Below, piece by piece: positions 2,950 to 39,300 of a stretch of 64,000 nucleotides of DNA. The notes under the pieces are model-generated. The model saw nothing but the letters and a program-made list of their open reading frames with translations. It was not told the DNA's origin and did no database searches. Position 1 is the stretch's first letter. The number at the start of each line of letters is the position of its first letter. Origin of the DNA: a virus. Position numbers and translations under genes: made by a program. The DNA lies in the IMG/VR virus record IMGVR_UViG_3300042892_003562, positions 1 through 64,000 of that record; one strand, given 5' to 3'.

Positions 2950-4060
2950 CCCTTGACGACTGAGTAGGGCTCAACGTCATTGATCTTTCTGAATGGCCGA
3001 ACCAATCAGATTCAAGGGTCAGAGAACCGGTTGCCCTACTCCCGAGTCTCTGGCCCTTCTCCTTTCCTTTCCGGCTACGGAACCATATTAGCCGAACCAT
3101 CCGCCTGCACCGGCTGTCCGGGCTACGTCGATGCTCCCTGCCGTTTGACCTGCGCACAGGGACCTGTAAATCAACCAAGCTTGCCGTGAACTCGGCAGGG
3201 GCTCGGAAGGTGGCCAGTTACCGACCACCCTTTGAAAGATTTTCTTTGGCCCACAAAGGTTGAAGATTCGTGAAATGTAAAATACGAATCAAATCATCCT
3301 GATTGCATGCAGAACATATTGGGATCTTATGATCAATATGCCAACCCTCCTTACTCCAGTTGTCCCAATTCATTCCCTCTTCGAATTGGTTTTCCAAATG
3401 AAATCTCAACTGATCCCAAGTGCAACCAATATACTGATGAGTCCTCAAGCTTTTCTTGATCCTCTTTCTTTTCAGGCCAATCAAAACGCGAGTTTGAGCA
3501 TTTCGAGCCAATCGGGTCATTAAAGGCAATTCACTCCAAGGCTTAATCCTGCCATCTTTACGACGTCTTGCATCAGAAGCTCGATTGCAGACATTACGAG
3601 CAGCACGACGTTCCGCGTCAGACAAAAAAACTCTGCATGATTTCACGTTGTTGGGTCGTTGTTCTTGGTATCGAGTTCTCGCCCTGACTCTTGCTGATTC
3701 TCTTTTTTTCTCATAAGTTGAAACCTTCATCCACCGTTCTCCGTTCGGCTTACTTTTATCGTAACCCCAAAAAACCAAGCCGTCATCACGCAGCGTCCCT
3801 TTCTTAAGTCTCTCCGTCATTCCTGAATCATAAAGAATCAAAGCCCCTTTAGCAAGACTTTCCGAGCCCCCCTTCCCTTCACCGGGCAAATGGCTTACTG
3901 GACTCAGGGGTCGCAAGACTCAACACACCAACCGCTTCTCGGATACCTCAGACTCGTCTCAAAAGTAACAAGAAGAACCCGAATCCGTCCCTGCAAAGGG
4001 GTGGCCTAGGGTCTGACTTCCCGTGTTCCTACGACTGAACTCAAAGTAACCTTCCTTCCA
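2950..4060 (+). ncRNA. putative structured RNA interrupted by an antisense HNH gene
   Basis: Hairpin arms GAGTAGGGC..AAC / GTTGCCCTACTC; 14-bp stem 3198-3211 / 3857-3870 brackets the HNH ORF; no convincing + strand CDS. Confidence 0.4.
3218..3820 (-). CDS. HNH homing endonuclease
   Basis: YIGC...GMNWDNWSKEGWHIDHKIP...HFTNLQPLWAKENLSKG; AT-rich; start likely ATG 3820 (MTERLKKG) just downstream of TTGCTA-N17-TATGAT. Confidence 0.85.
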   Translation of the reverse strand: MTERLKKGTLRDDGLVFWGYDKSKPNGERWMKVSTYEKKRESARVRARTRYQEQRPNNVKSCRVFLSDAERRAARNVCNRASDARRRKDGRIKPWSELPLMTRLARNAQTRVLIGLKRKRIKKSLRTHQYIGCTWDQLRFHLENQFEEGMNWDNWSKEGWHIDHKIPICSACNQDDLIRILHFTNLQPLWAKENLSKGGR

Positions 4061-5819: not shown

Positions 5820-6195
5820 GATTTCTACTGCTCCAGCAGCGACCGGTCGCTACGGAAACTGTAAAGCATGGCTTACAACACTGGAGGAAGAAAGCCCCTA
5901 AGCCCGTTCAGGAAAATGCGAAGCCCTTCTCGGGCGAATCAATAGCGGGAATCAAAATTAGAGACGAGAAAAAGCATCCAAGTGCGTAGCGCGAGGATGG
6001 AGCTGCTGGGGCGATACGCCAGCGCCGGACGCAGTAACCGGCTTCAATGAAGCGGCAGCACGGAAGGACGTGCCCGTAGAACCTAGGCTATAAGATCACT
6101 CAGGATTCAGATTGGGAGCGAAAGCGACCATGAGGGAGATGCGCTCCCATGCACGCATATGATATATGTCGTATTCGCAATCGACCCGCTTCACC
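5820..6195 (+). ncRNA. structured ncRNA cluster ending in a tRNA-like element (6049-6195)
   Basis: Successive hairpins (CTCCAG/CTGGAG, GCCCG/CGGGC, CATCC/GGATG, GCCGG/CCGGC); 7-bp acceptor-like stem GAAGCGG 6049-6055 / CCGCTTC 6186-6192 + ACC; D-like arm GCACG/CGTGC; T-like arm GTCG..TTCG..CGAC. Confidence 0.5.
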
Positions 6196-6217
6196 TTTTT
6201 CAGCCTGACCAAACACC

Positions 6218-9193: not shown

Positions 9194-9661
9194 ATGACAC
9201 TCCATCAAGTCAGCACGGCCAAGGATGGAGAAAGCTTCACCGCCATCGGCGTGGTGGTTGTCCACAAGCAGTTCAACCCCAAGATCTCGAAGAACGGCAA
9301 GCTGTTTTCCAGCGTCATCCTCAAGAGCGCGGGCACCGAGGTGTTCATGACCGTGTGGGATGACGCGGCGAAGGTCAAACTGCCGCTCAACACCGACATC
9401 ACCCTCCGTGGCAAGTTCACCAAAAACCAATACAACGGCGCGGCCAGCCTCAAGTGCGAGGAACTGGTCGTGCCGGAAGGGGCGACGGAGTGGAAGCCGG
9501 AGGAAATCCAAGGCGCTGCGGAAACCCCGAAGATGAAGGACTGCATCGACGCCGGGATCAGGGCGGCGGACTACATGGTCCGCAAGGAACGCCCAGACCT
9601 CGCGTCAGCCGCTTTCACATTCGCAGCCAACGCGTTCATTCAAGGAATCCGCATGGAATGA
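9194..9661 (+). CDS. OB-fold nucleic-acid-binding protein
   Basis: SKNGKLFSSVILK...MTVWD...LRGKFTKNQYNG beta pattern typical of OB folds. Confidence 0.5.
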   Translation: MTLHQVSTAKDGESFTAIGVVVVHKQFNPKISKNGKLFSSVILKSAGTEVFMTVWDDAAKVKLPLNTDITLRGKFTKNQYNGAASLKCEELVVPEGATEWKPEEIQGAAETPKMKDCIDAGIRAADYMVRKERPDLASAAFTFAANAFIQGIRME

Positions 9662-10300
9662 TTCTCCGCCCCCGGCGTTAACCGGTTGGGGGACAGATCC
9701 GGAGAAACACGGTTCGGGGTCTGGACCCGTATGCCAGAGCATTTGACGGCCATTAGCGCAAGAGACCGTTCGTGCAGATCACACCAGCACGTTAAAAAAG
9801 AGAAGAGTGTGACGGGACCAACCTGACGAGCAGGTGGCGTGGTCGAGAAGACGCAGGTGCAGCGCATGGCATCACCGGACACTGTCACCGGACTAAAAGT
9901 CGGAAGGTTGGCTTAGAAGCAGCCATGGGGAATCAGCACCCCTTTTCCTCTAAGGAGTGGGATACCGGGTATCACCTCCCGCGTTTGAGCTACCTGTAAG
10001 CGATGCGGGAAGGGTGAACGAGATGCCGGAGACCCTTTGGCGTAACAGCACACCGACACCATCTTTGAGCATGAGAAGCGCCTAGGCGTTAAGCGTAGAA
10101 AGCCGCCTCGCGAACGGCCATGCTCACCCACTCTCCGGCGCGTGTGCGCAGATGAAGCCAACATACTCCACTCTGAGAAATCAGGGGGCGTGAGGTAATG
10201 GGGTTGATTCAAATGTCGGGTTCAGTCCCGAGCGCGTTCGGACCACGTATCCGTGTCTGTATGACGGAAGGCGACTGGGCAACCTGCCAAAACGGGGGCC
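9662..10300 (+). ncRNA. multi-domain ncRNA cluster with a 23S rRNA H43/H44 mimic (9899-10057) and a tRNA-like domain (10134-10245)
   Basis: 640-nt gap without a credible CDS; consecutive closed stems separated by short AC-rich linkers; GGTTGGCTTAGAAGCAGCCAT and GCGTAACAGC match 23S GAC loops. Confidence 0.75.
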
Positions 10301-10323
10301 TCACTTTAGCCTGACTAAAACCA

Positions 10324-10587
10324 ATGAACACCCGCACCATCTACCTCATCTACGTCCGTCCCACAGGGTCGGAAACATGGACCCAGCACATGAAAGAATC
10401 GGGCGTCCCGTGGCGCTCCAGCAAGCCGTCAACCGCCGACGAATACGCCGTCACCCTTGCCAACAGCAGCAAGTATTGCACCAAGGTGGTGGCAGTGAAG
10501 CTGCCGAAAGACCCAGACGACATCGACCATCCGAAATACGCAGTGCTCTCGGACGGAGACACGCTCTACGTCGCCAACCCGTTCTAG
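10324..10587 (+). CDS. hypothetical protein
   Basis: ORF 4 nt after motif 10305-10319. Confidence 0.6.
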   Translation: MNTRTIYLIYVRPTGSETWTQHMKESGVPWRSSKPSTADEYAVTLANSSKYCTKVVAVKLPKDPDDIDHPKYAVLSDGDTLYVANPF

Positions 10588-21243: not shown

Positions 21244-21749
21244 AATCTCCTGAAAACTGGTATCATGAAATGATGAAACATGGTGAAAAGGTCATCACTT
21301 GGGGTGATTTCCAAGAACTTGTCGCTGAGATCCAGCGCGACGCCCTGTCCGACCCGATAGCTAAAACCACCGACCAGTTTAATTTTGAAATGAATCAGTC
21401 AATCGCCCGCAACGAGCGCATCCGGGCCGACCAGCTTCACGACGAGCTGATGAAAACACGAGCTAAGTGGCACGAAGCCCGCAAGCACCTCCGCGCCGCC
21501 AACAAGGGGGCCGAACGCAACGCGCAAGCCCTCGCCCTCGCCACGACACGCTATTGGGACTACCGCGACTCCGACCGGAACGAAAAGCAGCGCGACGAAT
21601 ACAAACACAAAACAGTCGTCTGGAACTGGCTGCTCATGTCGGACGACGAATACCGCCTGAAGTGCGGCGAGCTGTCGTCCCAAGACCTCCGCAACATCCG
21701 GGCCGTGCTCAAGGCCATGCTCGGAACCTCTCTCCTCAAACACCTGTAA
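21240..21749 (+). CDS. hypothetical protein
   Basis: 169-aa ORF, ATGA overlap. Confidence 0.55.
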   Translation: MKSPENWYHEMMKHGEKVITWGDFQELVAEIQRDALSDPIAKTTDQFNFEMNQSIARNERIRADQLHDELMKTRAKWHEARKHLRAANKGAERNAQALALATTRYWDYRDSDRNEKQRDEYKHKTVVWNWLLMSDDEYRLKCGELSSQDLRNIRAVLKAMLGTSLLKHL

Positions 21750-21751
21750 CC

Positions 21752-22216
21752 ATGCCATTCCAACACGCCATCCAACTCCTCGAAAAAGAATCCAGCTACT
21801 GTCTCCGTGATTACACCGCGCTCGGTGAGGTTCCGTCCGACGAATGCGCGGCCAAGCTCCGCAAGCTCAACAACGCCATCACCTTCCTCAAGGTGGCCAA
21901 CCTCGGAGGGACGTCCGCGCTGGTCTCGCAGGTCCGCCAGTGGGGGCAGGACCGCAACATCACCGGCCCCAACGCCAAGGCGACGGTCCACACCCAGTTC
22001 GAGAAGCTCCGCGAGGAGTTCTTGGAGCTGGAGGACGCCATCGCCCGCGAGGACCAGCACGAGCTCATCGACGCCATCGGTGACATGACGGTGGTGTTGA
22101 TTTTGTTGTCGGAGCTGGCAGGGGTGAGGTTCGAGACCTGCCTTGTCGCCGCCTACGAAGAAATCCGCGACCGCAAGGGCTCCATGATTAACGGAGCGTT
22201 TGTCAAACAACTTTAA
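21752..22216 (+). CDS. MazG-like nucleotide pyrophosphohydrolase
   Basis: VRQWGQDRNI...QFEKLREEFLELEDAI...LIDAIGDMTVVL...AYEEIRDRKGSMINGAFVK; start ATG 21752. Confidence 0.8.
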   Translation: MPFQHAIQLLEKESSYCLRDYTALGEVPSDECAAKLRKLNNAITFLKVANLGGTSALVSQVRQWGQDRNITGPNAKATVHTQFEKLREEFLELEDAIAREDQHELIDAIGDMTVVLILLSELAGVRFETCLVAAYEEIRDRKGSMINGAFVKQL

Positions 22217-22219
22217 CCA

Positions 22220-22507
22220 ATTTTGCGCCGTGCCTGTGCAAGCCGAAGTAGCTCGCAACCCCGGATTGGGAATTCCCGACGAGGCAGTAGTGGTCGAAAA
22301 GCGCGTGGGGCAACTGCTCGTCGGCAGGATCATGACCCTAAACCTGATCACTCACGCGGCGGCGCAATCCCCTCACGGACGTAAAGCCGGACTTGATCCG
22401 GACAACCGGACGAATGACCCGAAGGAGGTTCGAAACTCCGGAAGGCAAGGAGACTACGTGTAAGTGTCTCCCGCTCTGCTCCACGGCGTAAATACTGCTG
22501 GAGCACC
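22220..22507 (+). ncRNA. putative pseudoknotted ncRNA cluster
   Basis: TTGCGCCG/CGGCGCAA closing stem; CCGACGAG.CAGT/ACTGCTCGTCGG stem whose loop (22302-22309) pairs with 22351-22358; further hairpins up to motif 22509. Confidence 0.5.
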
Positions 22508-22528
22508 CTTTAGCCTGACTAAACCACC

Positions 22529-24138: not shown

Positions 24139-24300
24139 ATGAAGAAAGAACTACAGGAAGCGGCCTTCACCCGTGAGATCGAGAGACGCATCGACCAGCT
24201 CGCCACCGAGTTCGACCTGTCCTACTCGTTCGTCGTGGGGGCGCTCAGCCTGATCCTCCACGGGATCAAGCAGGAATACTTCGAGGACGATGAGGACTAG
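24139..24300 (+). CDS. hypothetical protein (53 aa), last gene of the + arm
   Basis: MKKELQEAAFTREIERRIDQLATEFDLSYSFVVGAL...EDDED*; 1 nt after motif 24123-24137; stop shares CTAG with the giant ORF stop. Confidence 0.6.
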   Translation: MKKELQEAAFTREIERRIDQLATEFDLSYSFVVGALSLILHGIKQEYFEDDED

Positions 24301-27300
24301 GGCTCGTTCGCCCACACCGCTTCCTGAAGCACCTTCTTGGAGGACTGTCTTCCCTCACGGGTGGAGAATAGAATTTCCTGTGCGAGATAGAGCGAGATGT
24401 CGAAGGCGCTAACCTCGCCCGTCTCGTTCGCGTCGTAAGCCAAATTCATTCCGGCAACCAAGTCGTATAGCACCCCGGTCGGAGCGGTGAGCTGCATTGC
24501 CGTCTTGAGTCCGCTGCTCTCCATCTCCCACACGTTTACCGCGTCCTTGTCCCACTTGTTCTCCGCCGATTCCAGTCCGGTGAGCTTGGCCGTGGCCTCC
24601 TGCACCACACTGTTGGTGATGCTGTTCTTGAAGGCGCTTGCCACCGGGAACAACCCGAGCACCGCGCCAGCCACCGGAGCCACCGGCAATACCTCGCTCA
24701 ACATCGAGCTGGCCAACCCGGCGTAAGCCGAAGCCGCCGCCGCGTCCGGGTCCTTCCAGTCTTGGAAGAACTGTCCGGGTTTGCCGATGGTCATCGCCTT
24801 GATCCCTCCGAGAACCGCGTTGTCCTCTCCTTCCGTATTGAACAGGCTGTCTGCCTTCTCCTGAGCCTTGGCCATCGCCTCGTCCTCGTCGTCTCCGCCA
24901 AGCATGTAGCCGACCGACAACAGGATTGGAACGAGGTTTCGGATCTTCAGAGCGTGGAACAACGAGTTTTGCACCATCGTCCCGACAAGGTTCTCCACCG
25001 CGTTCTGGTGGGCACGCTTTCCGCCGTCGGTCATTTGTCCGCCAATGTCCTCACCCGCTTCGTTGAGCGTTCCTATCTCGTGACGTTCGGCCTGCCATAA
25101 CGTGGGGGCCATAGCACTCATGTTACTGGCGGTGGACGCCTGATGGTTCGAAAACCGGACAATCGAGCGCATCAACGCGTTCCATGTCGGAGAGCTGGTC
25201 TTGTTCTGGAAGAAGAACGACTTCTTCGCCTTGTCCGAAACCCCCATGTGGTCATTAAGCTTTGTTTGAGCGGCTTCCACCGCTTCCTGCGGGATGTCGA
25301 AACGTCCCTTGTTCTCCGCCTTGATCATCTCTGTGATGGAGCTTGGCACCTCCCCGTCAATCAGACCCCTTGACTTCATCCATTGGAGCTCGGCCATCAA
25401 CTCGGTGAGGAAGATGGCGCGTGACAACCAGCGTTCCGGCTTGGCGATGGTCAAATCCAAAGCCTTTTCCTGCCACTCCTGAGTGACCTTCGCCGCCTTG
25501 CCGGAATACTTCTTCACATTACCCACACCGTGACGGGTCTGGTTGCGCAGATTGGTCTTCACTTGGTCCATTCCGTCCGCACCACGGAAACTCGACCACG
25601 GAGCAACCCGCAGCATAAACTCCTTGGCGTCGTGGTTGTAGTCGCCGGGCTCGTTCTTGTCGAACGACTTGGAAGTGACGATCTGGCCCATCGCCTCGAA
25701 CATCATCCCCGCCTCGTTCCATTTCCCTGAAAGCAGCTTTTTCGCGCCGTAACCCAGAAGCGAAGGAGCCGACTGGTTCCACCATTGTTGGAACGAAGCC
25801 AGCGCCTTGAAGATATACATCGACGACAGGAACTGAATGCTTTCGGAAAACGCCGTGTCGGTCACCCCGTGCTGCATGTCGTTGGCGATTTCATTGTCGA
25901 ACTCGGAAGCGATGCCCGCCAGCGCCACCCGTTGCAAACGCTTGTCCGCATTCTGCTCGTCCTCCCCAAGAATCAGTGAATTGACGATCTCGGCTTGGTT
26001 TGGACCCGCCTGCTGGACGCTTCCGACAATGTTCCGCAACGAACTGTAGACTGGCGTGACGTTCAACCGGTAGAGCGTGTCGTCAAGCATTCCCTCAATC
26101 GCGGAAATCCCGTTCAAACTCACAGGACGGAACACCAACGTCTTCTTGTTCTTGTCACGCTTCTCGGTGCGTCCCGGACCACCCAGCAATGACATCTCTT
26201 GGAACCCGACCTCATGCAAAGGATCGGCCTTGTAAGGCGTCACTTCCAGACTGAGACGTTCCGCAGACGGATCGGTGGCGTAAGCATACCGCAATGGGAC
26301 AGTCGAGATCAAACGGGCTTGGCCATGCAGTCTTCCCGCAAGGAACGCCTCGGACGGATTAATGTCCTCAATCTCTTTCTGGTCGTGACCCATCGCCATC
26401 ATCATGATTTCAGCCGCGTCGGTCATGCCCTTGAACTTGTCACCGATGTAGTCGGCGTAGTCCTTGGCGGCATCCATCACTCCTGACTCTTCCGACTTCG
26501 CGTAAAGCCTCTCGATGGCCTCGTTGATCTGCTGCACCGCATAGGCCTCCTTGTCACCTTTCGGGACAAACGGAGAGTCAACGATGTCCTCAATGATGGA
26601 GTAGAGCTCCTTCACCATGTTCTCGTCGCGAATGACGTTGATGTGGTCGTCGTTGAAAAACCCTTTCACACCACCCGCCGCCTTTTTCAAGGCCCCGTCC
26701 GTCACCTTGCTGTGACTTGCGAGCTGGGCGTCGCGATACAAGGACAAGTCCTTCACCCCTTTCTTCAGGTCGTTCGACCACATCGAGAAGTTGGCGGCGA
26801 CCGAGTAGGTCCTGACTCTCTTCAATCCTTCCAAACTGGCGATCATGTAAGGAATCGACTGCATCAAGGAGTCGTTCCCAAGCGCCAGATGCTTCTTGGC
26901 CATCACCTTCTTCTCAGCTTCCAGCTGGGAAATCCAGCCGTTGCGGCCCGAGTTCATGTCGAAACCGTTCTGGAGGATACCGTGGAGACGCATCGCCTCA
27001 AGCTGGGCGAGGTAGTTTTTCCGGTAACGAATCCGGACGCGAGAGTCGTGGTGGTTCAAATACTTCATCGCCGTCAGTTCGGCGGTGCTCAGGTTGGTGG
27101 ACAACCCGGTCAACAGCTGTTGCAAAGCGGCCTCCCCCTCGATCCTCGCGCTCATCCGCTCGAACAATTCGAACAGGCGGACCTGCTGGGCGGTGTTGTC
27201 GCTTTGAACAATGCTGTCGTCACCGAGCATCTCAAGGAACTTTGCGATGTCCTCCTTGAGTCCGCGTTGGTTGGTCTCCGTGCTGGGCGAGAGCTTGTCG

Positions 27301-30300
27301 TAACCAATGACCAGCGCCTCCACCATGTGGGACAACTGACTCAACGCGTTCTTCATGTCAACATGCTCAACGTCCACCTTCTTGTCCGCCGCCAGCTTGA
27401 AACCAGCCACCTTGTCACCCGGACGGGCGTTGGCTCGGGCGATCAAAAGCTCCGCGTGACGACCGGAATACTCCTTGGCCACCTGTTCACGGGTGGTTCC
27501 AGAAGGGGTGAACCTCGCTCCACCAAACGCATGGGTCCATGTCCCGTCTTTCCATTCACGGGTGAAGCCCATCCGGTTCTTGGTCTGGGGTTGGGGCGTT
27601 GGTTCGTCGGTGTCGGGAAGAGAGTTGAGGACGACGTCGCGCATCGTGATCTTCTTGCCTTTGCGCTTGGCGGTCTTCTCCGCAGGGGTGAGCTCGCTGT
27701 TGGAATGGTAGCGGTTCTTCAGGTCCTGCTCGGCGTTGATCTGACCCAGCATGATCCACTCACCGTTGTTGATGAGATGGCCGATGATGTCCTTGCGGGC
27801 GGCGAAGTTGGACGGCACCTTGTATTTGGAGACTCGGCGGGCTGCGTTTAGCCGGGCTAAATCAGCCTGAAGACTCTTGATCTTGTTCCGGTTTCCGGCA
27901 ATCGGATGCTTGAACAACTCCTTGTCGGCGAGCTTGGTCTCAATGGCTTTGATCTGGTTGTTGATAACCTCAAGATTACCTCTCAGACCACTCCGGAACT
28001 TCGGATCAACCGACAGCTTCACCAGACGGGTCTTTTCGTTCTGAAGCGAAACCATCTTCTCAAGCATTGGAGCGGCACGCTCTGCCTCGGTCTGACGCTG
28101 GGCCAGCTCGTCCCTCACCTTCATCGCTTCGACCACGTTGCTCGTGGAATAGATGCTGTGGACTCCGGGCTCCGCCAGCAAGGCGATGGCGTCAGGACTC
28201 AGTTGGGAACCCGATCCGGTCACTCCCCCGAAGTTGTTCTTGAACTCGGTCAGACGCGCCTCGGCGATCCTCTCCTGCAACGTGAGCGTGTCGCTCACCT
28301 GACGGATAATCGCCGCTGGGTTATAGTCGTTGAAGTAAGCTTGGTCGCCCTTCACCGCACGGTAGAGCTCGTCGGCATGACGGGCGTATTGACCGAGCGA
28401 CTTGGTCAGAGCCTCTTTCATAATGTAGAACTCGTGGTCCTTCTCTCCTTCCGGCGTGGCGTTCCACTTGGCTGCAAGCTGGGCAAGACCCGCCTCAATC
28501 CCCATCTTGTTCTCGAAGTTGGGGGTGGTTCCGGCAGGGTAGAGGACGATGGTGGCGTTCACCGATTCGGTGCGTCCGGTCGGTCCTTTCTCACCGGAGA
28601 TGAAGACGTGGCGACCCGCCGACCACGGGGTGACCGAGCTGTGGGCGAGACGCTGGAAGAACCCTCCCTTCAATGGATTGCGGTCGATACGGACCAGACC
28701 AGCCAACTCCTTGTTTGCCAGTTCGACATTCTGGCGAGCGACACGCAACTTGTTCATTTCCGACGCATCCAAAACCTTGCCACGCTCCGCGATCTCCATC
28801 TTGAGACTTGACGAAAGCTGCATCTCGTTGAGCAGGGCTCTGGTGTTCTTCTGGCGGTTGGGACGGACCTTGGAATCGTTTTCCAATGAGTCGAACTTCT
28901 CGTTCAATTCCCGAACCAACGTCTTTGCCGCAGCTTCCTTGCCGAACGTGCTGATCTCGCCGATGGTTTGATTGAGCAGCTTCTGGTAACCGCTGCGGTT
29001 GGGCGCGAGCTTGGCCGGAAGGTTCGAACGGTAGATCGCGTCAGCCTCCGACAGCACGTGCTGGAGAATCATCTCACGTTGAGCCTCATCAATAAGGTTG
29101 ATTGACTGCGAGTTGAACAAGTCAGGCGTCGCCGCCATCACGGCTTCAATCCGGTCGACCTCCGATTGGTTGAACGCAATCCGGTCTTCGATAAACGCCT
29201 TCCGGTCCTTCATCGCCTGAAGCTCGCGGCGGGCCTCTGCCTCATGGCCTTCCAGCATTGGAAACACATTTTTCATCTCGGCGTAGACTTCGGGCGTCAA
29301 GGCCATGTCGGCGAAGGCGCGTGGGTAGATGACAAGCTTGTCCTGCCCCTTGCCGTTGTCGACCCAAGCTTGGGTTCCTTGGTCAATGGAACGCTGGGCT
29401 TCCTTGCGGATCACCGACTCAACACCGGAGACACGGGAAAGAAGACCGCCGGAGAACGATTTGAACCGGTTGCTCTCGTGGTGAAGCGTGGACGCGGTGC
29501 GTCCGTTGATCCGTCCTTCCATCATGTTGTGCCATGCGGTGACAACAGGGACTCCCTCACGGCCCTGAAGCCTGCTCTCCTGTGTCCGGCGAAGCCCCTT
29601 GGGGGTGTTCTGTCTGACGACGGGACGCGCCTGCGGACTGGTGGACTCGCTGAGAAGTTGTGTTCCCGGAGTTGGCCGTCTCGAAGCCATCCCCTCCATC
29701 TGGGTTCTGGCGTCAAACCGCATCGACTCATGCTCCTTGGCAAGACCGATCAGGTCGACAAAGAGGTTGATCATCATCGCGTCGCTCGCTGGCAGGCTTT
29801 CTCCGTTCCATGCCGGGTCCTCAAACCCACCACGTCCACGGTGAAACTCCTCCAACACCGCCTCCATCCGCTTGTCCATCACCCCATACTCAGAGATGTC
29901 GTGGTTCTTGTTGCGGAGATACTGGAGGATGCTGGAAACCGACGGCTCGACGGAACGAAGCAACTCCTTGTCCTCGTTCGACGGCTCGATGTCCAACTCG
30001 ACTTCCTGACGTTCGGTGGAGTCGACGCGGCTGGCGAGGAACTTCTCAAGCTCCGACTCCATCCAGCTCTTCTCCACATCGTCAGCCGCCTGCTCTTCGG
30101 CCAGATCCGAATCCTCGTCGGTTTGAGGCGTGGCCTTGGTTTCCATCGCGTTGTCGAAGGCGTATGGGTCCTGTTCCTCCACCGCGTCCTCGCCCATCTG
30201 CTTGTTTGCCAGAAGGATTTCATTGAGGGTGGCGTTGGACAAGTCGCTTGATTTCAATAGGTTGTCTCCGAAAAGGAAGCGGTCCAGAAGCTTCTTCATG

Positions 30301-33300
30301 TTCGGATTGGTCATGGCCTGAGCGACCAGCATCGCGTCGGTGATGATGTTCTGCTGTCCTTTAAGACCCGAGAGATCAGTCTTCCCGTCGAAAGAAGCTG
30401 ACTGAAGTGTATCGGTCGACTCGACAAATCCTTTCTCACCCATCCGGTCAAACAAGTCATCCCTATCAAAAGCACGGACGGTCGAAAGGGTCCCGTTTTT
30501 CATCAATCCTTCTGAACGAGACAGAGCTCCAAGATTCTCCATCGTGGCGAAGTGCTCACGGAGGAGACCAGACAGGATTTCAACTTCCGTTTCCTTGGCC
30601 GCTTCGTCCATCGCCGCCAGTTTTTCGGGGTTCTGTTCAAGCAGCGACATCGAATAGTCACCGAGCATTTTGCTCACTGCATCCGTATTGCCCTTGTGAG
30701 CCCTCATGAAGCGCTCGATGTGGGTTATGGGACTGAGTGCCACACGAATCCTTTCAGCGGCTTCCTGAAGCACGGGGGCGACCAATGCAGCCGACTCTGA
30801 CTGTGTCCCCCACCACGCAAGCGCCTGAGACACCATCGCCTCGTTGTCGGCGGAGTTGGAACCCTCGGCGGCGTAAAGCACCGGAGGGTTGCCGTCGACA
30901 CCGGGAAGGAACCGTGAACCAAAGTAGGCTTGGTTCTTGTCGATTTCGCTCTTGCTCGCCCGGTAGACCAAGACACCCGGAATGTTCTGTGTGAGAAGAT
31001 TGACGGCCTTGTTGGCGGAGACGAAGCCCGTTTCATTGTATTGGGCGAAGACGTTGCCCCGATGGAGGTTGATGGCCTTGTTGCCACGGCTCTCCGACTG
31101 GAGCATGAGCGCGATCTTGTTCGACTCCTCCTGTGAGGCGAAGCCATTGCCCTTGCGCGGAGCGAACAAATCACCCATCCCGAGCTCTGCCATCTTGGAC
31201 GCTGTCGCGGCGAAACTCGTCTTGATTGATTCGGAGTCCTTGGCGAAAACAGCCCCCTGCGCGGACTCGTTGTCGTTCGTCGCGGACAACGCATATCCCA
31301 CCACCGTCCGGATGGCCGTCAACAACTCCTTGTTCGAATCGTTGCCATTGCCGTTCGCCTCCACCACGCGGGCTTGGTCGATGATCTCCATCTCGCTCTT
31401 GGCCTTGAACTCGATCAACGACTCCATCAATTCAAACGGGTTGATCTCAGTGGCAACGCTTTTCCGTGTGTCCGATGGCACAACCCCCATGCGGGTGACC
31501 GTCCGTGTTTTGGTGACGGTGCGCGTGGTGGCTGCGCCGGGAGCGTTCTGGGCGTTGATCCGCGCAGTTTCCTTCTCCCACTTTGCCAGCGCCTCTTGAT
31601 GGATGGCGTCTCCGAACATATCGAAACTACCCTGAACCGGCTTGATTGGAAGAACCTCTTTCGGAATCACCTCATCATCCTCATAGCTTTCCTCCTGCTG
31701 GATTTCCTCGACTCCACGGCTGGAAGCGTAGTTGTGATACATTTCGACCAACGGAGACAGTTCGCTTTCCTTGGTGACGCCGAATAAGCCACGAATAGCC
31801 TTCCGGATGAAAGCATCATAACCTCTCGGATCGTCCTCCAGTGCGACAAGATCGCGGAGGAACTGACGGGGAGCGTCGGCAGCCGACTCGTTCGAAGAAA
31901 GAAGTCCGCCATCCAAGTTTAGCCCGACTAAAAGGGCGGCTTCAGTCAGACGCTTATTCTGAAGCTGGCGCTGAAGGTCGGTGGTCACCTGTGCTCTCTG
32001 TGCTTTTGACCGCCTTGAGTCCTCGCTGGCGCGTCCATCACGGGTCTCCTGCACCGTGCTGCCCTGCGTCCCCATCTGGGAAGCGAGAGGGAAGTTGCCG
32101 GAGTTGTCCTTGTCGGCGATGGCGTAGGCGATGGCCTCGCTCGGGTCCATGTCGACGTGGATCTGCTTGCGGACCACGAGCATCTCGCCGTTGGAATCGA
32201 GCTGGACCTTTGGTTGTCTCACTGGAACCAAGCGTCGCGTCTCAACCCCGTTGACGGCTTCCGTTCTGTAAGTGACTGCCACCGGCATCCCGGCTTGGTA
32301 ATCTGGATGAGACGACGAAACCAGCTCGGTGAACTCCTGACCGTTCTTCCCAACCGACCTCTTCTCAAACATCTCCTCAAACACCACGTCCCCCTTGGAG
32401 TCCCGTTCAAACACAGGGACGTCAGACCAAACCCAGTTCGGACCGCCCACCACCAACTCACCGTCCTCTTTCGAGAACGAGATACGGCGGAACTTCTCGT
32501 AAAGGTCGATGCCGAAAGTGGCGCTGATCGCTGAAGTCCTGCTCTTGGCGAAGTAGTTGATGTTCCACAATCCGTTGTGAAGCGTCGGGTAGTCGATGTG
32601 GCTCTTGCGTGCCTGCTCGAAGAAGTCGGAGTAGGCCACCATTCCGGCGTCACGGCTCGTCTGGGTGACCTCGCGGGTGACGTTCGGACGACTGCGGACA
32701 AACCGCTTCACCGCACCCCGCGCCCAACGGGCCTCGTTGCGAAGTGACCGGACAGACGCATCCAGCACCTGATGGCTCTGAGAGTTGTAAATCGCGCTGA
32801 TGGATTCAGCGAGCGCCTTGCCAGACAAGCCGGAGCTGACGACGTCGAAGTGAAGCTTGAGGAACCGTGCTTCCTGCTCGTTGATCAGTTGGAGGGCCTC
32901 TGTCGCACGCTGATGAATCCGTGACGACAGTCGTCCGGCCAAAGTCTGCATTCCTCCGATATTCCCAAGGATCTTCTTGGGGTCGGTGGACTCCTGAAGC
33001 TTGGTCGCCCAGTTGCGGAGCTTCTGGAAATAATCCGCAAAGGTCTCTTCATCATACTCCGTGGTTGAGGAAATGGTAGCTTGATTGACTCGGGCGGTCT
33101 CCCCGGAATCGTGTTTGATCATCTCCGGAATACCGGCGCTGTCAAAAAACGCCTGACGCGTCATGCTCTTCAAGCGGGTCTTGCCGTTGAGGAAGTCAAT
33201 GAAGTATTTCCCATAAGGGATGTTCGGAAGGATGGACTCCAGCTCCTCGTAGGTGGTGGCGTTGAACTCGTCGTTCTCGATGGGTGGAGTGTTGAATCCA

Positions 33301-36300
33301 AAGCTTCCCTCGTAGCGTTGAGCCAGCTCCTCGTTGACTCCGATCTCGGTCAACATCTTTTGCCACTGCATCTGGTAATTCGTCCCGATTGCGGCCATGT
33401 TGCTGGCGACGTGGCGATTGAGGAGGACGTCTTTGGCCGTGGCATTGCGCTCCAGCGTGAACACCTTGCTCTTGTCATAGGGCTTCTCGACCATCGACAT
33501 GCCGTCGGAGGAAGGAACCATCTCCGGAATGAACGGGACGCCGGGGCGGTCGACATGGTAACGGAGACGGTCCGCTCCGTCCTTGTTCAACACTTGGAAG
33601 ATCGCGGGATAGTAGTTGACCCCGTAGGATGATTCGGAATCGGAAGTCGGCATGATGTCGTCAAGACCCTGTTCCGGGTCAAAGAACAACGGGCGACCGT
33701 CCATCTTCGCCTTCACGTAGGCCTCCATCTCCTCGGCGTCTCTGGCGTCGAACTTGGCGTAGACCAAGCTCTGGAACCGAAGACCGAAGTTGGTGCTGTC
33801 CAAGGACTCGGAACCAAGGACCAAGTCCACCACCCGGCGGTTGGTCTCGTTGTATTGGTCGAGCGCCTGCATGTAGGCGTTGAACTTGACCATCTCCTCC
33901 TCGGCGAAAGGCTTGTTGATCGCCGCCTCCGCCCGCAACCGGCGGGCCTTGAGTAGGGCCTGACTGCCGTCCGAACGGCTTTCACCCGACAAATACATTT
34001 CGATTTCCTTGGCCGTGTTTAGCTTGGCTAAAGACTCCTGCTGCTCATCCGTGAGGTTGGCGCGTCCAATCCGCTCTTGTTGTTCCTCGGTCATCACCGC
34101 CAGCTTGAACGCGGCGAGATCCTCCTGAAGATTCAGGCGCTTGGTGTTTTCGAGGTTGGTTGGCTTTGTGTTTGGGAAGAGGATGGATTGGATTGGAAGC
34201 AAGGCGTTGCTGCCAAGCAACAGGCTCTTCCCTTCCAATAACGCGTCGTCGTCCATTGCCATGTCGGCGGCGTGACGGCGCAAGCCGACGAGCCACGCTT
34301 CAGCCGTGGTGCGGGGAGACTCAACCAAAGGACTCATTCCGGATAATACGTCCAGCCTGTGAACCAAGCGGGCATCATCCATTGCAACCTCGTATCCCAA
34401 AGCATTGGCCGCCTTCGTCGCCTTGATGCTGTCTGAAACCTTGCCCAGATCAATATTCTCCAACGCCTGAAGCATGTCCACGTTGGCGTTGTGGAGGGTG
34501 ATGCGGTCGGCGTTAAACATTGCGGCAAGCTCGTCCTCCTTCTGCTTGATGAAGCGCGAGCCGTTGTCCATCAACGGGGCCGACGCCACGAGCTGGGACC
34601 ACACCTTGAGCTTGTCCGGTTCCGAGCCCTCCTCCAACACCGACAGGAAGTTGGGGGTGTTGGCCCGAGCCCATTCCAGCTGCTGCCACGCGTAACCCAA
34701 GTCCCGTTGAACCAAGGACAACGCACCCTCCTCGTTCAAATCACCCAGAGCCTTGTCCAGATCGTTAAGGTCGGTGCCGGGGTAGTAGCGACCGATCATC
34801 CCGCGAACGTCCAAACCGTCCTTGTCTTCAGACGTCCGGAGACGGATGGCTCCCTGCTTGTAGTCCAACACGATCATGTCGTCCAAAGACATCCCGAGCT
34901 TCCCGGCAATGTCACGGATCTCCACCATCACCTCGTTGTGCTTCATCGCCACCGAGCCGATGGCCTTCTTGGTCATCTCCCTCGACCGCTGGAATCGCTC
35001 CACCGCCTCCTCCAGCCCCTTCTCCTTGATCTGGTCGACGTCGCCGCGCAGGTTGGTCTTCACGTAGGCCGTCTCCTGCTGGCGGATCATCCGGTTCAGC
35101 GAGGTTGGAAGCTGGCCCATCATGTAACGGAGGTGGGCCATCCGCTTGATCTTCTGCATATAGCGCTTGAGAAGCTCCACCACGGTCTTCCACGGGTTGC
35201 TGGTCTCCTTGTTCGAGAAGTCCTCGTTGAGGGCGATGAGCAGGCGCTTGGAGTCGGTGGTTTGTTGTTCGGTGCTGACGCCGCTGGTGAGGATCTGGTT
35301 GAGAGCGCGGAGGGTTTCCGAGGCGACCAAATACTTGTCCGCGTCGTCGAAGTCCTCGATCTTCTTGCCCTTCACCCGTTGGGCGGCAACCCGTTGGAAC
35401 ACGTCGTTGACGAAGCGTTGCCTGACGTTGCCGCCCTTGTCCAAGTCTTCGGACAGCTCCACGAAGTCGGAGAACGAATTGATGATCTCCTCGTCGGTGA
35501 ATTCACTCATCGCCACGAAGTGGGTTTGCTCCTCGTCCACGAACGCCGCGATCTGACGGGCGACTTCGTTGGAGACGAAGGAATCGTAAAGCTCTCCTCG
35601 GGTGGCGTCGTAGCCCTTGAAGATGCTGCGGAGGTTGGCGACGAACGCGTCCTTGTCCAAGTTGATCTTGAGTTGTGACGTTACCGTTTCCTTGGCTTTC
35701 TGTGTTCTTGTTGGCGCAACATATCCATCCACTGGAACTCTTCTTCCGCTCAGCTGAACGTAGTGGGCAACAAGCGTCCTGACCTTCTCTTTTACCTGTG
35801 TGCCATCAGGATTCTTTTTGGCGACACGTATCCCGGTTTCCGGATCAGCATCTTCATACACTGTCCGACTTACCACCTTTTTGATCATGTCGATCAACAG
35901 ATCACCGTTCGCGTCACGCTTGAGGTTGTCATCGAGCTGGGCTTCGTCAAAAGACGTCCCGTTCGATGTCTCGCGGGTGACGTTGAAGAAAAACCCCTTC
36001 TCCATTTTGGCGTCCCAGTTGATCGCCGCCGGGTTGCTGCCGGGAGCCACCACCTGAAGCACGTTCTCGATCATCTTGCGGAAAGCCGCAGGATCAATCG
36101 GTCCCTTCCCAAGAAGGTCCTTCAGCATCGGCTCGATGGCCTTGCCAGCTTCCGTGAGGCGGTTGCGGTTCCAGTTGGAGTTGAGCTTGCCGAGAAGGAC
36201 CGTGTCGTTCTTCCGCATCGCGTCGCCAATCACCTTCACGTCGATCTGGCGGAAGTAGTAGACGCCGTCGGCTTCTTCAGTGAGGACAAGAACGTGGTCA

Positions 36301-39300
36301 GGATCGCCTGCAATCTCAACCACCGCGTTCACCCCGATGGGGAGCGTCTTGCCCTTGGCAGGCTTGTAGTAAATCTGGCTCTTGTCGTCCTTCGACCACA
36401 CCCCGCCAAACTCGTCCTCCACGTCCATTGTTGACAAGTCGACGTAGAACTTCGGCGTGGACGGATCGAGGAACAACGGGTCCTCCTCACCGGGCTTGTC
36501 GTTGGCCGTGTCTGGCTGGGCGTCAAGGACGTTGGTTGGCTTCTCTTTGAACTTGCGAACCGCCTTGCGGACGTCGGCTGCATTCTTGATCTCGGACTCG
36601 GAGATCAACAGGACACGCTGGTTCGCGGGAATTCCGTACTCCTCGCGGGCGGACGTCTCGTCATCCCCGACAACCACCGCCACGCCATCGTCCCACAGCT
36701 CCTGAAGCGCCTCGTCCACCATCGCCGCCTTCTGGTGAGGCTTGCGTCCAAGGACGTCCCTGACGGCGGCTGGAGCTTCCGGAGTTGTTTCTTCGGAAGC
36801 TCCTTCGGTCAGCACATCCCCTTCGTTTTCGGCTTGGGCTTCGTCGTCGGTTTCGGTTTGGTCTTCATCGGGTGGTGTTGGTTTCTTGGTTTCTGCCGCC
36901 GGAGTGGCGGAGGGAGCTTCTTTAGCCGGGCTAAAATCGTCCAACTTTTCAGCTGGCCCAAAAATACCTTCGTAATACTGATTGGCTTGATCCAAAGGAT
37001 CGGAGCTCATCTCAATCGACTCCTCAAAAGCGTTTTCTGGATTATCAAGAGGCACATGAATGATGATAACTTCATCTACTTCGATCCCACTGACCTTGAG
37101 CGCTTCCACGTAGGCCTTCATTTGAACCTTGTGAGACATTGCCTTTGAAGCACGCTTCCGGAAAGGAGCCTTCTTCTCCGTATAGCCATTGTTGTAATTC
37201 TGATAAGAGGCTTCTTCGCTGGCGGTCTTGGTATCCACCAGAATCCACTTGCCGTTGGCCTTCGGGATCAGACCATCCACCATCCCTGCGTATTTTTTTG
37301 TCGCAAACGCACCTTCAGTGACAACTGGCCCGGACGCTCTCTTTTTCAAACCTTTGATAATCTCCTTAACCTTGTCACCAAGTCCGGTGGGCTCGCCCTT
37401 AAATTCTTTCTCTACCTCTGCGTGGAAGGCTGTCCCTTCTTCAGCAGCGAGAGCTCCCGCCGCAGTTGACTTCCGTTGGAAGTGGGGATGCTTCTTCATC
37501 AAGGTGGTGACGGACGGCTTCACGTCCCCGTCCGCCTCGTAAATATGGTTCTCCTCATCGAAGGAAATTCTCTCAGGCTTGAACGCTGAGTCGAAGTCTT
37601 CGTTGCCCGTAGGGGTTCTTTTGACTAGCCCTTTGACAGGTGCCAAAGGCTCTGGGCCTGATGTCGGGACAACTTTGCTAGGACCTGAAGCTTCGCTATC
37701 GACGACTCTTTCGGGGCTTGGAGGATCTCCCACACCTTCTTTGCCGGGAGTGGGGACTTTTGGATTAGCTCCTGAATCTGTTCTGCTTTGGATCGGTCTT
37801 GCATAGTTGGTGGTTTGAGAAGAATCGAAATTGCCGAAGCTCTTGAGCATCCCCTTGCGGATTTTCGCCTCGGAACCGAGAGCCTTCATCGGGCTGATCG
37901 GGTCAGCCGCCTTGAGTTGTGCCGTCGCCTCGGATGGAGACAACACCTTGGTCTCGCCCTTGGAGTTGGTCAGCACCGCGCCCATCGACGTCTCTCCCTT
38001 GACCGCGACGCTCTTCATCGTGAACGTCTCTCCGCCAACCGTGAAGTTGTGCGTGAGGTCGCGCTTCGGATCGCGCATCTCCGGGTTCCACTCCATGTCG
38101 TTTCCGTCCTTGTCCTTCGGTGCCGGACCCAAATGGTCGGTCATTTCCTGAGCATGGACGGTCTTGGGGTCAGGAGGGGTGTTCCTTGCCTTCTCCTGCG
38201 CCTTCTGGGCGCGTTCAACGGGAGTCGTGGCACTTGGCTCCAGACGGCGGGCAAAGCCGCTCACGGCGTGCTGTGAGAGCACCTTGGCCCGCTTCTCCAC
38301 CGGGATGGATTCATCGGCCATGTAGTTGGCCACCGAAACCACCGGAGCTCCGGACGCCGCCTTGATCCCCAGCATCTCCGCAGACGCATCACTGTTGTTT
38401 TCCTTGATGTCCTTCCAGATCACCTCGGCAAACTCCTTGATCTCACGGACGCGGGTGTCCCGGTTCTTCTTGCGGAAGGCTCCAGCCGTCTCAACGACCA
38501 TCCCTCCACTCTCACCCAACCCGCCACCGAACGCACCCATCACGCCCGCCGCCATATACTCACTGAACTTGTCACCGATGTTGTCCCAAACCTCGCCCTT
38601 CCACGTCTTGGAATCGTCGAGCACGGCGAGGAACACGTCGGACAGCGCGGTGTCGAAGGTTTCCTCCATGAACTCGGCACCCATTCCAACCGCAGGGCCG
38701 TAGCCTTTCAGACCGTTGGCGCGGGCGGCGCGGTTGATGGTCTCGCGCAGCGCGGGTGCCAGCGCCTTGCGTAGCTCGGAACCTTCCGCCGCCAATCCCT
38801 CAAGGGTCTCGATAGCCGCCTTCTGAGCGTCTTGAGAAACAGCGCTCTTCATCGCCTTGTTGAACTTGAGATGCTTGAAAATTGACCCGCTGAGCCCGCC
38901 CTCGACACCGCTCATGCCTTTTTCAAGACCCGGAGCAATCCGGTTGAACGCGGCGGTCGCGATGAACGCGGCGGCTCCGTCTGCCAATCCCTTCATTCCC
39001 GCCTGATGATACGCCTCCTCGGCGTCACCGGTCTTGTCAAAAACCTGATTGTAGGTGGAGCCGAAGGACATCCCTCCGGCCTGCAACGCGCCGATGTAGG
39101 CGGAAGGGTCCTTGATCGCCTTGATACCGAAATTCTTCAGCGTGTTCGGAGCAAGCTCGGTCATCGCCTGCTTCATCGCCTTCTCGGAAATCGTGATCTG
39201 CCTGCCCATCGCTGTGGCGGCTCCTGTGCCCTGCAACGCGCCAACTCCCTTGAGTCCGAGACCGCCGCCGATGACACCACCTACAATTCCTCCAACCATC

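What the first reader, a model, noticed from the sequence alone, without database searches (positions are those of the whole stretch)
9662..10300. Tandem array of self-contained RNA domains, with a tRNA-like ACCA-ended element next to the GAC mimic
Seen: the 640-nt gap parses into consecutive closed domains joined by short AC-rich linkers: TTCTCCG/CGGAGAA (9662-9706), ATGCCA/TGGCAT (9731-9872), the GAC mimic, TGAGCATG/CATGCTCA (10066-10126), and 10134-10245. The last has a terminal stem TCCGG-CGCGT/GCGCG-T-TCGGA, a T-arm-like TCGGG-TTCAGT-CCCGA and a 3' ACCA, but no canonical anticodon arm. Inference: a polycistronic precursor processed like a phage tRNA cluster. An uncharged-tRNA mimic plus an L11-site mimic are two features RelA senses, and the arm also encodes a MazG-like enzyme (21752-22216). 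Together they may form an RNA-based module tuning the stringent response or translation. This functional link is speculative.
Basis: partly seen in the sequence, partly recalled or inferred. Interest (0 to 1): 0.78.

Follow-up and report, generated by a model that had tools for sequence, protein, structure and literature searches.

The report
Shuffled non-coding RNA cassette array in phage
A 640-base gene-free stretch of an uncultured freshwater phage holds a string of separately folding RNA modules that related phages gain, lose and swap like cassettes; one module copies a ribosomal RNA site, but the supposed tRNA look-alike fails every tRNA test I could run.

Summary
Taken alone they are no more than chance gives; the support comes from comparison with relatives.

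Nine related phage contigs all carry an ORF-free array at this position, built from interchangeable modules:
- H1 (9662-9706) is in 9 of 9, with five different complementary outer stems.
- The pair D (10066-10126) plus E (10134-10245) is in 6 of 9.
- C (9899-10057), the mimic of the 23S rRNA GTPase-associated centre (GAC), is a clean insertion in only 2 of 9. It belongs to a phage RNA family that this scan has already reported on other DNA in at least 17 genomes.
- B (9715-9872) holds a 47-nt pseudoknot-like core that is 45/47 identical to a tRNA-array spacer in an unrelated AT-rich phage. Short contigs from two metatranscriptomes cover it.

E is a three-way junction with an invariant closing stem and a replaceable long arm. 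ARAGORN and Rfam see no tRNA. Its "T loop" has 6 nt and is a GNRA tetraloop in 3 of 6 relatives.

E travels with D, not with the GAC mimic, so the proposed RelA module is unsupported.

Best reading: a + strand array of exchangeable stable non-coding RNAs. Their function is unknown.

The parts
9194..9661 (+). Upstream gene (155 aa): an RPA/SSB-type OB-fold protein with a two-helix tail. It is the last gene of an exonuclease, Erf, SSB block. The array starts at its stop codon.
   Evidence: AlphaFold2 model with pLDDT 87.5. Best Foldseek matches are RPA and SSB OB domains, E 1.5e-5. This gene precedes the array in 8 of 9 related contigs.
9662..9706 (+). H1: a two-tier hairpin. The outer stem is 7 bp and the inner stem is CCCCCGG/CCGGUUGGGGG with two G-U pairs. 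The loop GUUAACCG is conserved, followed by the conserved flank ACACGGU (9708-9714).
   Evidence: z -2.93 on the + strand against -1.20 on the - strand. Present in 9 of 9 relatives with five different complementary outer stems.
9715..9872 (+). B: a domain of about 160 nt found only in this phage among the DNA relatives. Its closing stem is uncertain.
   Evidence: Absent from L002-L005, L146 and L155-L157. z +0.33. Contigs of 168 and 180 nt from two metatranscriptome studies cover window-equivalent 9676-9866 and little else of the region.
9771..9815 (+). Core of B, compatible with an H-type pseudoknot: S1 CGUGC/GCACG, S2 UCACAC/GUGUGA, and an A-rich third loop.
   Evidence: Window 9769-9815 is 45/47 identical to L007:9850-9896, which lies directly 3' of a tRNA-Arg in an AT-rich phage tRNA array. 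The two differences keep pairing (C-G to U-G, U-A to U-G). S1 and S2 each appear in alternative nested folds. No compensatory change is available.
9873..9895 (+). Tail hairpin CCGG-(9 nt)-CCGG followed by ACU, then a linker.
   Evidence: The same hairpin closes 'module X' in relatives L005 and L155-L157, with stems CCGG/CCGG, CUGC/GCAG and CCAG/CUGG. Blast match to L157:4003-4025.
9899..10057 (+). C: the mimic of 23S rRNA H42-H44 (GTPase-associated centre), with two internal insertions.
   Evidence: The H43 hairpin is 20/20 identical to E. coli 23S. The H44 loop reads GCGUAACAGCACA against GCGUAAUAGCUCA. The closing helix sits in the rRNA register and covaries across seven other distinct phage loci. 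Very deep contigs (summed depth about 48,000), presumably real rRNA, lie on 9894-9964 in an RNA-type run. It is a clean insertion relative to L002 and L005.
10066..10126 (+). D: a three-way junction. It has an 8-bp closing stem, a P2 hairpin with a variable loop, the conserved strand AAGCGUAGAAAGC, and a P3 hairpin whose loop holds the palindrome UCGCGA.
   Evidence: z -2.28. Pair probability about 1.0 in every fold of the whole gap. Compensated pairs in P2 (L002) and P3 (L004). Present in 6 of 9 relatives, always 7 nt upstream of E. The covariance model R1 finds it nowhere else.
10134..10245 (+). P1 is 10134-10143 / 10232-10242. The variable long arm is about 10151-10208. P3 is 10216-10231. 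The 3' CCA is 10243-10245.
   Evidence: P1 is in the minimum-energy fold of 6 of 6 variants, and P3 in 5 of 6. The long arm has five unrelated sequences that all fold as hairpins. z -0.45. There is no covariation in P1 or P3. In full context P1 is out-competed. No tRNA, tmRNA or tRNA-like hit.
10246..10300 (+). F: optional trailing hairpins.
   Evidence: Shared only with L003. L002 and L004 have a different 95-nt sequence here, and L005 and L146 have nothing. z -0.83.
10305..10319 (+). TTTAGCCTGACTAAA, a promoter-like hairpin motif that marks the start of the next gene (ATG at 10324) and bounds the array.
   Evidence: 36 matches at up to 2 mismatches against 0.03 expected. 12 intergenic copies of this form, 10 of them exact, lie 1-8 nt before an ATG of a gene on the same strand.

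Best explanation
The gap encodes, on the + strand, a string of independently folding non-coding RNA modules at the end of the exonuclease / Erf / SSB / RPA-like operon. It ends just before the next promoter-like hairpin motif.

The modules behave as cassettes:
- H1, directly after the stop codon, is universal in this phage group and probably marks or stabilises the operon end.
- Downstream of H1 there is one hot spot where whole modules are inserted, lost or replaced. These are B with its pseudoknot-like core, the GAC mimic C, 'module X' and others.
- D plus E is a fixed unit of about 180 nt in one sub-lineage.

C is a member of the widespread phage family that copies the uL11-binding site of 23S rRNA. 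Here it sits in a phage with no tRNA genes, flanked by other closed RNA domains instead of tRNAs.

E is not a tRNA mimic. It is a three-way junction with a sequence-invariant closing stem, a freely replaceable spacer arm and a short hairpin stacked on the closing stem. Its closed stem with a short 3' CCA tail could serve as a processing or 3'-end-protecting element for the array.

Shown: non-coding status, modularity, + strand polarity from conserved G-U pairs, family membership of C, and covariation in H1, C, D and X.
Inferred: transcription as one precursor, excision into stable small RNAs, and any action on the translation apparatus.
For: - No coding signal. ORFs in the gap have no Pfam or PHROG match, and the module gains and losses in relatives would break any of them.
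- Modularity. Six close arrays share H1, D and E but differ by whole blocks between H1 and D. Three more distant relatives keep H1 but carry other modules. A module of the window's second RNA cluster (5822-5920) lies inside this array position in L157.
- Covariation. H1 has five complementary outer stems. The closing helix of C has a different sequence in each of seven other distinct phage loci, in the rRNA register. D has compensated pairs in P2 and P3. Module X has six compensated pairs.
- Strand. Conserved G-U pairs in H1, D and E would be A-C mismatches on the other strand. z-scores are better on the + strand.
- Context in other phages. The GAC mimic lies inside tRNA arrays in L007, L010, L011 and L013, and the 47-nt core of B follows a tRNA-Arg in L007.
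- Own promoter. In L146 a variant of the promoter-like motif precedes a non-coding module plus D and E, with no ORF behind it.
- Expression hint. Contigs from two metatranscriptome studies begin within 1 nt of each other in the H1 loop and cover B only.
Against: - No RNA ends, abundance or processing were measured. The metatranscriptome evidence is two short contigs of a relative, and DNA can be present in such libraries.
- E and B are not more stable than shuffled sequence.
- E's closing stem has no covariation and about zero probability when the whole gap is folded. E's small hairpin P3 also falls to about zero once the promoter-proximal sequence is included.
- The pseudoknot in B rests on three near-identical sequences.
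- D plus E and B were found only in this small clade. All viral, metagenome and genome pattern scans returned the same few contigs.
- Position at operon ends fits purely cis-acting roles equally well.
Confidence: 0.6

Rival explanations
1. Cis-acting operon-end elements. The hairpins act only on their own transcript, as terminators or pause sites for the phage or host polymerase, barriers against 3' exonucleases, or insulators between transcription units. They do not act as separate RNAs.
For: All three non-coding clusters of the window (5820-6195, 9662-10300, 22220-22507) lie between a stop codon and the next promoter-like motif. H1 always starts at the stop codon. In several relatives it is followed by a terminator-like hairpin with a U run (L002, L003, L146). 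In L157 it is followed by a strong intrinsic terminator, z -4.76.
Against: The window has no terminator-like site in the gap. C is a sequence-level copy of an rRNA protein-binding site and in other phages sits among tRNAs, which is not an operon-end role. In L146 the modules lie behind their own promoter-like motif. 640 nt of conserved junction sequence is far more than end protection needs.
Confidence: 0.2
2. E is an uncharged-tRNA mimic and C an uL11-site mimic. Together, perhaps with the MazG-like enzyme, they tune RelA and the stringent response.
For: C does copy H43/H44. E has a closing stem directly followed by a hairpin and a 3' ACCA in 5 of 6 relatives. A MazG/PRA-PH domain is present at 21467-22216.
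Against: E fails every tRNA test run here. Its loop is a GNRA tetraloop in 3 of 6 relatives and its stem has 9-10 bp. E occurs without C in 4 of 6 arrays, and D, not C, is its constant neighbour. Relatives L155-L157 have neither. Nothing links MazG to the array.
Confidence: 0.05
3. DNA-level feature. The region is a recombination or homing hot spot, or a replication or packaging site, and its inverted repeats act in DNA. The conserved sequence blocks would be protein-binding sites or leftovers of mobile elements.
For: In L004 an HNH endonuclease gene is inserted next to H1 with a duplicated H1 half. In L007 another sits directly upstream of the GAC mimic. HNH genes lie 1.2 kb downstream in the window. 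Loops of H1 and D hold 6-nt palindromes (GTTAAC, TCGCGA).
Against: Conserved G-U pairs and compensatory changes keep RNA pairing on one strand only. C copies an RNA, not a DNA site. Homing would explain how modules spread, not why their folds are conserved.
Confidence: 0.07

Closest known systems
Phage RNA family that copies the 23S rRNA GTPase-associated centre (H42-H44, E. coli 1051-1108). It is unpublished as far as I could find and has been reported repeatedly by this scan.
   Same: Module C has the H43 hairpin letter for letter, the H44 loop, the UUUAAAGA/CUAAGGA junction and a covarying closing helix in the rRNA register.
   Different: Here it lies in a genome with no tRNA gene. It is flanked by other closed RNA domains, and it is an optional cassette present in 2 of 9 related arrays.
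Stable RNAs of the phage T4 tRNA region (RNAC and RNAD, 'species 1 and 2')
   Same: These are phage small RNAs of still unknown function, encoded with other stable RNAs (PMC9697503 calls them 'RNAs of yet unknown functions'). From my own knowledge, not checked here: they are cut out of a common precursor with the tRNAs.
   Different: There is no sequence or Rfam relation, and this phage has no tRNAs to be co-processed with.
GOLLD and ROOL RNAs
   Same: Large structured phage or prophage RNAs of unknown function, often near tRNA islands (PMC12286853).
   Different: There is no match to either Rfam model, even at E up to 10. The array here is a chain of small independent modules, not one ornate fold with a conserved core.
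tRNA, the tmRNA tRNA-like domain, bacterial Y RNAs (YrlA) and mascRNA-type small tRNA-like helices
   Same: E has a closing stem abutted by a short hairpin and a 3' ACCA. Relative L157 has a small helix with a canonical T arm that scores 24.2 bits on the mascRNA model.
   Different: E has 9-10 bp instead of 7, a 6-nt or GNRA loop, and no D or anticodon arm. No model hits it. The genome has no Ro60 gene. The L157 score is below the family threshold of 42.5.

Membership tests
tRNA / tRNA-like (module E) | Recognised as a cloverleaf by tRNA finders | tested here: not met
   ARAGORN finds 0 genes in the window. Rfam RF00005 has no hit at E up to 0.01 in the whole 73.9-kb genome, with 14 of 14 control genomes positive.
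tRNA / tRNA-like (module E) | 7-bp acceptor stem stacked on a 5-bp T stem | tested here: not met
   P1 has 9-10 pairs with an optional bulged U, and P3 has 4-5 pairs.
tRNA / tRNA-like (module E) | Conserved 7-nt T loop (UUCRANY) | tested here: not met
   The loop is UUCAGU (6 nt) in the window, L002 and L003. It is GCAA in L004 and GAAA in L005 and L146.
tRNA / tRNA-like (module E) | D arm and anticodon arm | tested here: not met
   A single long arm with five unrelated sequences replaces both.
tRNA / tRNA-like (module E) | Encoded 3' NCCA | tested here: inconclusive
   ACCA in 5 of 6 variants and ACCU in L005. Whether the RNA ends there is unknown.
tRNA / tRNA-like (module E) | Cleaved by RNase P or aminoacylated | not testable with these tools
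   This needs enzyme assays.
Phage GAC-mimic RNA (module C) | H43 hairpin and H44 loop of 23S rRNA | tested here: met
   20/20 and 11/13 identity to E. coli 23S. The same motifs are in all 8 viral loci found by pattern.
Phage GAC-mimic RNA (module C) | Closing helix in the H42 register, covarying between members | tested here: met
   The duplex starts 5 nt before GGCUUAG and directly after GCACA in 9 of 9 sequences, E. coli included, with different sequences.
Phage GAC-mimic RNA (module C) | Binds uL11 or translation GTPases | not testable with these tools
   No RNA-protein prediction or assay is available.
GOLLD, ROOL, tmRNA, RNase P, group I/II introns, riboswitch pseudoknots | Match to the Rfam covariance model | tested here: not met
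   No hit at gathering thresholds. Nothing relevant at E up to 10 on the gap or on its halves. The same scan found RNase P RNA, tmRNA and a group I intron in other loci.
Bacterial/phage Y RNA with Ro60 | Ro60 (TROVE) gene in the genome, and a Y RNA model hit | tested here: not met
   PF05731 is absent from the genome, with controls positive. There is no Rfam hit.

The most novel reading that the evidence does not exclude
A phage with no tRNA genes carries a horizontally shuffled kit of RNA decoys of the translation apparatus: the uL11-site copy, an ultra-conserved pseudoknot shared with tRNA-array phages, and a closed helix ending in CCA. The kit would be released from one precursor by host tRNA-processing enzymes and used to blunt host responses that act on ribosomes or tRNA ends, such as the stringent response or toxins that target tRNA acceptor ends. 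Palindromic loops in H1 and D would let the modules pair with each other.
Probability: 0.1. Interest if true: 0.85.

Novelty: new variant of a known kind. Interest (0 to 1): 0.55.

Why it matters
Phage stable RNAs other than tRNAs are a long-standing blind spot. T4 RNAC and RNAD, GOLLD and ROOL still have no known function.

This locus adds three points:
- The ribosome-site mimic can live without tRNA neighbours.
- The mimic is one of several exchangeable RNA cassettes.
- At least one other cassette, the 47-nt pseudoknot-like core, also moves between unrelated phages.

The small set of natural variants is a ready-made deletion and swap series for testing what each module does. It includes arrays with and without C, with five different E arms, and with or without D plus E.

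Tried and rejected
The DNA around about 25 more divergent homologues of the upstream gene found could therefore not be fetched. This was the best route to more array variants.
- blastn of the gap against 50,697 phage records gave no match.
- Exact-pattern scans for D/E, for the array/gene junction and for the core of B returned only the same clade, L007 and chance matches. The 119 hits and the Spirochaete hit are chance.
- The covariance model of D (R1) found no further copy in the window, in GAC-mimic loci or in distant relatives.
- Read laying: most of the region has no cover in the RNA runs, which proves nothing. The joints 9926/10034 and 10152/10304 in the DNA run X7 probably reflect real rRNA and a variant array, and were not pursued.
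- I first took the phage for N4-like because of the 5486-aa ORF and the terminal repeats. The two segments of that ORF that I scanned (about half of it) gave no virion RNA polymerase match in PHROGs, so I dropped the label.
- Reading the 3' half of E as an attP-type tRNA fragment was rejected. The 5' strand is present in cis, and the strand after the hairpin has 11 nt, not 7.
- Two literature searches for a described GAC mimic in phages found nothing. Three further searches on phage stable RNAs and tRNA-like elements found no description of such an array.

Full report
**Setting.** The window is the first 64 kb of a complete 73.9-kb virus record with direct terminal repeats. Sequencing runs that hold the stretch come from lake, freshwater and estuary metagenomes. 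The gap 9662-10323 follows a block of recombination genes: an exonuclease, an Erf-like annealing protein and an SSB. The last gene of the block is a 155-aa protein that I modelled (pLDDT 87.5). It is an RPA/SSB-type OB fold. The gap ends at a 15-nt hairpin motif, TTTAGCCTGACTAAA. The motif has 36 matches at up to 2 mismatches against 0.03 expected. Of these, 12 intergenic copies of this form, 10 of them exact, lie 1-8 nt before an ATG of a gene on the same strand.

They are not significant in themselves. The gap holds 21, 6 and 2 perfect inverted repeats of 6, 7 and 8 bp, against 21.9, 5.1 and 1.4 in shuffles.

Folding energies are mixed:
- z-scores are H1 -2.9, D -2.3, E -0.45 and B +0.33.
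- The whole gap scores about -2 on both strands.
- In partition functions of the whole gap, the D stem is the only one that is highly probable in every run. E's small hairpin is probable only in the 9655-10325 run. H1 reaches about 0.7 when pair span is limited. E's closing stem loses to pairings with the region near the promoter-like motif.

No ORF in the gap matches Pfam or PHROGs. There is no Rfam hit at gathering thresholds. Nothing relevant appears at E up to 10 on the gap or on its halves.

**Relatives.** I obtained nine distinct related contigs in three ways:
- the upstream protein (L002-L005);
- a metagenome pattern scan (L146);
- a protein alignment (L155-L157).

All carry an ORF-free array at this position, 250-700 nt long, but the contents differ by whole blocks.

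| Module | Window coordinates | Present in |
|---|---|---|
| H1 | 9662-9706 | 9 of 9 |
| B | 9715-9872 | the window only |
| C (GAC mimic) | 9899-10057 | the window and L004 |
| D plus E | 10066-10245 | the window, L002-L005 and L146 |
| X | tail hairpin only (9873-9895) | L005 and L155-L157 |
| F | 10246-10300 | the window and L003; a different sequence in L002 and L004 |

- **H1.** It has five different complementary outer stems: UUCUCCG/CGGAGAA, UUCUCUG/CAGAGAA, UCUUCCG/CGGAAGA, UCUCUUG/CAAGAGA and CUUCCC/GGGAAG. The loop GUUAACCG and the 3' flank ACACGGU are conserved.
- **D plus E.** They are present together, 7 nt apart, in six arrays. They are absent from L155-L157, where model R1 with filters off finds nothing.
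- **C.** It is present only in the window and L004, as a clean insertion between the same flanks.
- **B.** It is unique to the window among the DNA contigs.
- **Module X.** L005 and L155-L157 carry this instead, with six compensated pairs in three hairpins. Its tail hairpin is the one at window 9873-9895.
- **Movement between loci.** A 100-nt piece of the window's second RNA cluster (5822-5920) sits inside this array position in L157.
- **Homing endonuclease.** In L004 an HNH endonuclease gene is inserted beside H1.

**Module C.** The pattern GGCTTAGAAGCAGCCATGG occurs in 8 viral loci, 7 of them on other contigs. All have the H44-like GCGUAAYAGCACA 130-370 nt downstream. All also have a closing helix of different sequence in exactly the register of E. 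coli H42 (E. coli 23S was fetched). Four of these loci are tRNA arrays, and one also has RNase P RNA and tmRNA. The scan's earlier notes describe the same family in at least 17 other genomes, with no published description found. My two literature searches aimed at the mimic also found none. So C is a confirmed member. What is new here is its setting, in a genome with no tRNA gene at all.

**Module B.** Window 9769-9815 is 45/47 identical to L007:9850-9896, directly after a tRNA-Arg in the same AT-rich phage that carries a GAC mimic. The sequence allows an H-type pseudoknot: S1 CGUGC/GCACG, S2 UCACAC/GUGUGA, and an A-rich loop. Both differences keep pairing, and each stem appears in alternative nested folds. 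Further scans found no other member. Two metatranscriptome contigs from different studies (168 and 180 nt, about 88-90% alike once gaps are counted) begin within 1 nt of each other in the H1 loop and run to 9854 and 9866. Their variation is concentrated upstream of 9770. This is a weak hint that B accumulates as RNA.

**Module E.** It fails every tRNA test:
- ARAGORN and the Rfam tRNA model find nothing.
- The permissive scan of D plus E alone finds no tRNA-like family.
- The closing stem has 9-10 pairs.
- The 'T loop' has 6 nt and is GCAA or GAAA in three of six variants.
- One variant ends in ACCU.

What E does show is a constant architecture. The two closing strands and the junction strands GUGUGCGYAGA and UCAAAUG are invariant. 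The long arm has five unrelated sequences that each fold as a hairpin, often with a GNRA cap. An indel of one U in the 3' strand is tolerated as a bulge. There is no covariation, so the closing stem remains inferred.

One relative, L157, has a real small tRNA-like helix with a canonical T arm directly after the stop codon. It scores 24.2 bits on the mascRNA model, below the threshold of 42.5. tRNA-style punctuation is therefore conceivable in this phage group.

**Interpretation.** The best-supported reading is a + strand array of exchangeable stable RNA modules at an operon end.
- The + strand is indicated by conserved G-U pairs and by strand-asymmetric z-scores.
- Transcription independent of the upstream operon is suggested by L146. 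There the promoter-like motif precedes a non-coding module plus D and E.

The RelA idea lacks support. E goes with D, not with C. Most arrays have no C. The MazG-like domain is only weakly detected and lies far away. There is no Ro60 gene, so a Y-RNA reading also fails.

The function of H1, B, D, E and X is unknown. Their closest analogues in kind are the unexplained stable RNAs of T4 (PMC9697503) and the tRNA-island RNAs GOLLD and ROOL (PMC12286853).

Noticed in passing
window 1707, 4759, 6199, 10305, 15250, 16823, 20461, 22509, 24123 (+); 1269, 42129, 43758 (-): TTTAGCCTGACTAAA is a 5-bp stem with a 5-nt loop. It lies 1-8 nt before the ATG of genes that have no Shine-Dalgarno sequence, except the copy at 1269, which has no ATG within 24 nt. 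Relatives keep the stem but change the loop (L155 GGTATGA, L156 TCATGG). In L146 a variant precedes non-coding RNA. It looks like a hairpin-type promoter that gives nearly leaderless mRNAs.
   Followed up: partly
window 12366, 27847, 36921, 44478, 49437, 50587, 56792, 58759, 59219, 60937, 63274: A perfectly palindromic variant, TTTAGCCSGGCTAAA, recurs 11 times, mostly in the late and structural half. It could be a bidirectional terminator or a second promoter class.
   Followed up: no
window 9194-9661: The 155-aa protein with no Pfam or PHROG match is an RPA/SSB-type OB fold with a two-helix tail. It is a second single-strand-binding protein, next to a bacterial-type SSB.
   Followed up: yes
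window 6048-6196 and 22220-22508: The two other non-coding clusters also end just before the promoter-like motif. 6048-6196 folds as a closed four-arm structure with an 8-bp stem followed by ACC (z -2.95). 22366-22508 has z -2.1 and a T-arm-like GGAGGUUCGAAACUCC.
   Followed up: partly
window 10107-10112 and 9678-9683: The P3 loop of D holds the palindrome UCGCGA in 6 of 6 variants while its stem covaries. The H1 loop holds GUUAAC in 7 of 9. Self-complementary loops could allow kissing dimers.
   Followed up: no
window 9839-9845 and 10241-10247: CGUGGUC in B is complementary to GACCACG, which overlaps E's 3' CCA tail, and the global fold uses this pairing. Because B is absent from relatives it may be fortuitous.
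   Followed up: no
L004:4472-5131: A low-GC HNH endonuclease gene (219 aa) is inserted between a duplicated 5' half of H1 and a complete, compensated H1.
   Followed up: partly
L157:3469-3511 and 3675-3746: A small tRNA-like helix with a canonical T arm lies directly after the stop codon. Further on there is a 23-aa lysine- and glycine-rich ORF inside the array.
   Followed up: partly
L013 (IMGVR_UViG_3300035394_000051): This phage contig has a GAC mimic, RNase P RNA (187 bits), tmRNA, about 10 tRNAs and a CUA-anticodon tRNA that ARAGORN calls Pyl (a possible amber suppressor).
   Followed up: no
window 24297-40757 (-): A 5486-aa ORF. Only two segments of about 2,900 aa in total were scanned. 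One has an exonuclease-like match (phrog_298, E 3e-11), and no virion RNA polymerase match was found.
   Followed up: partly
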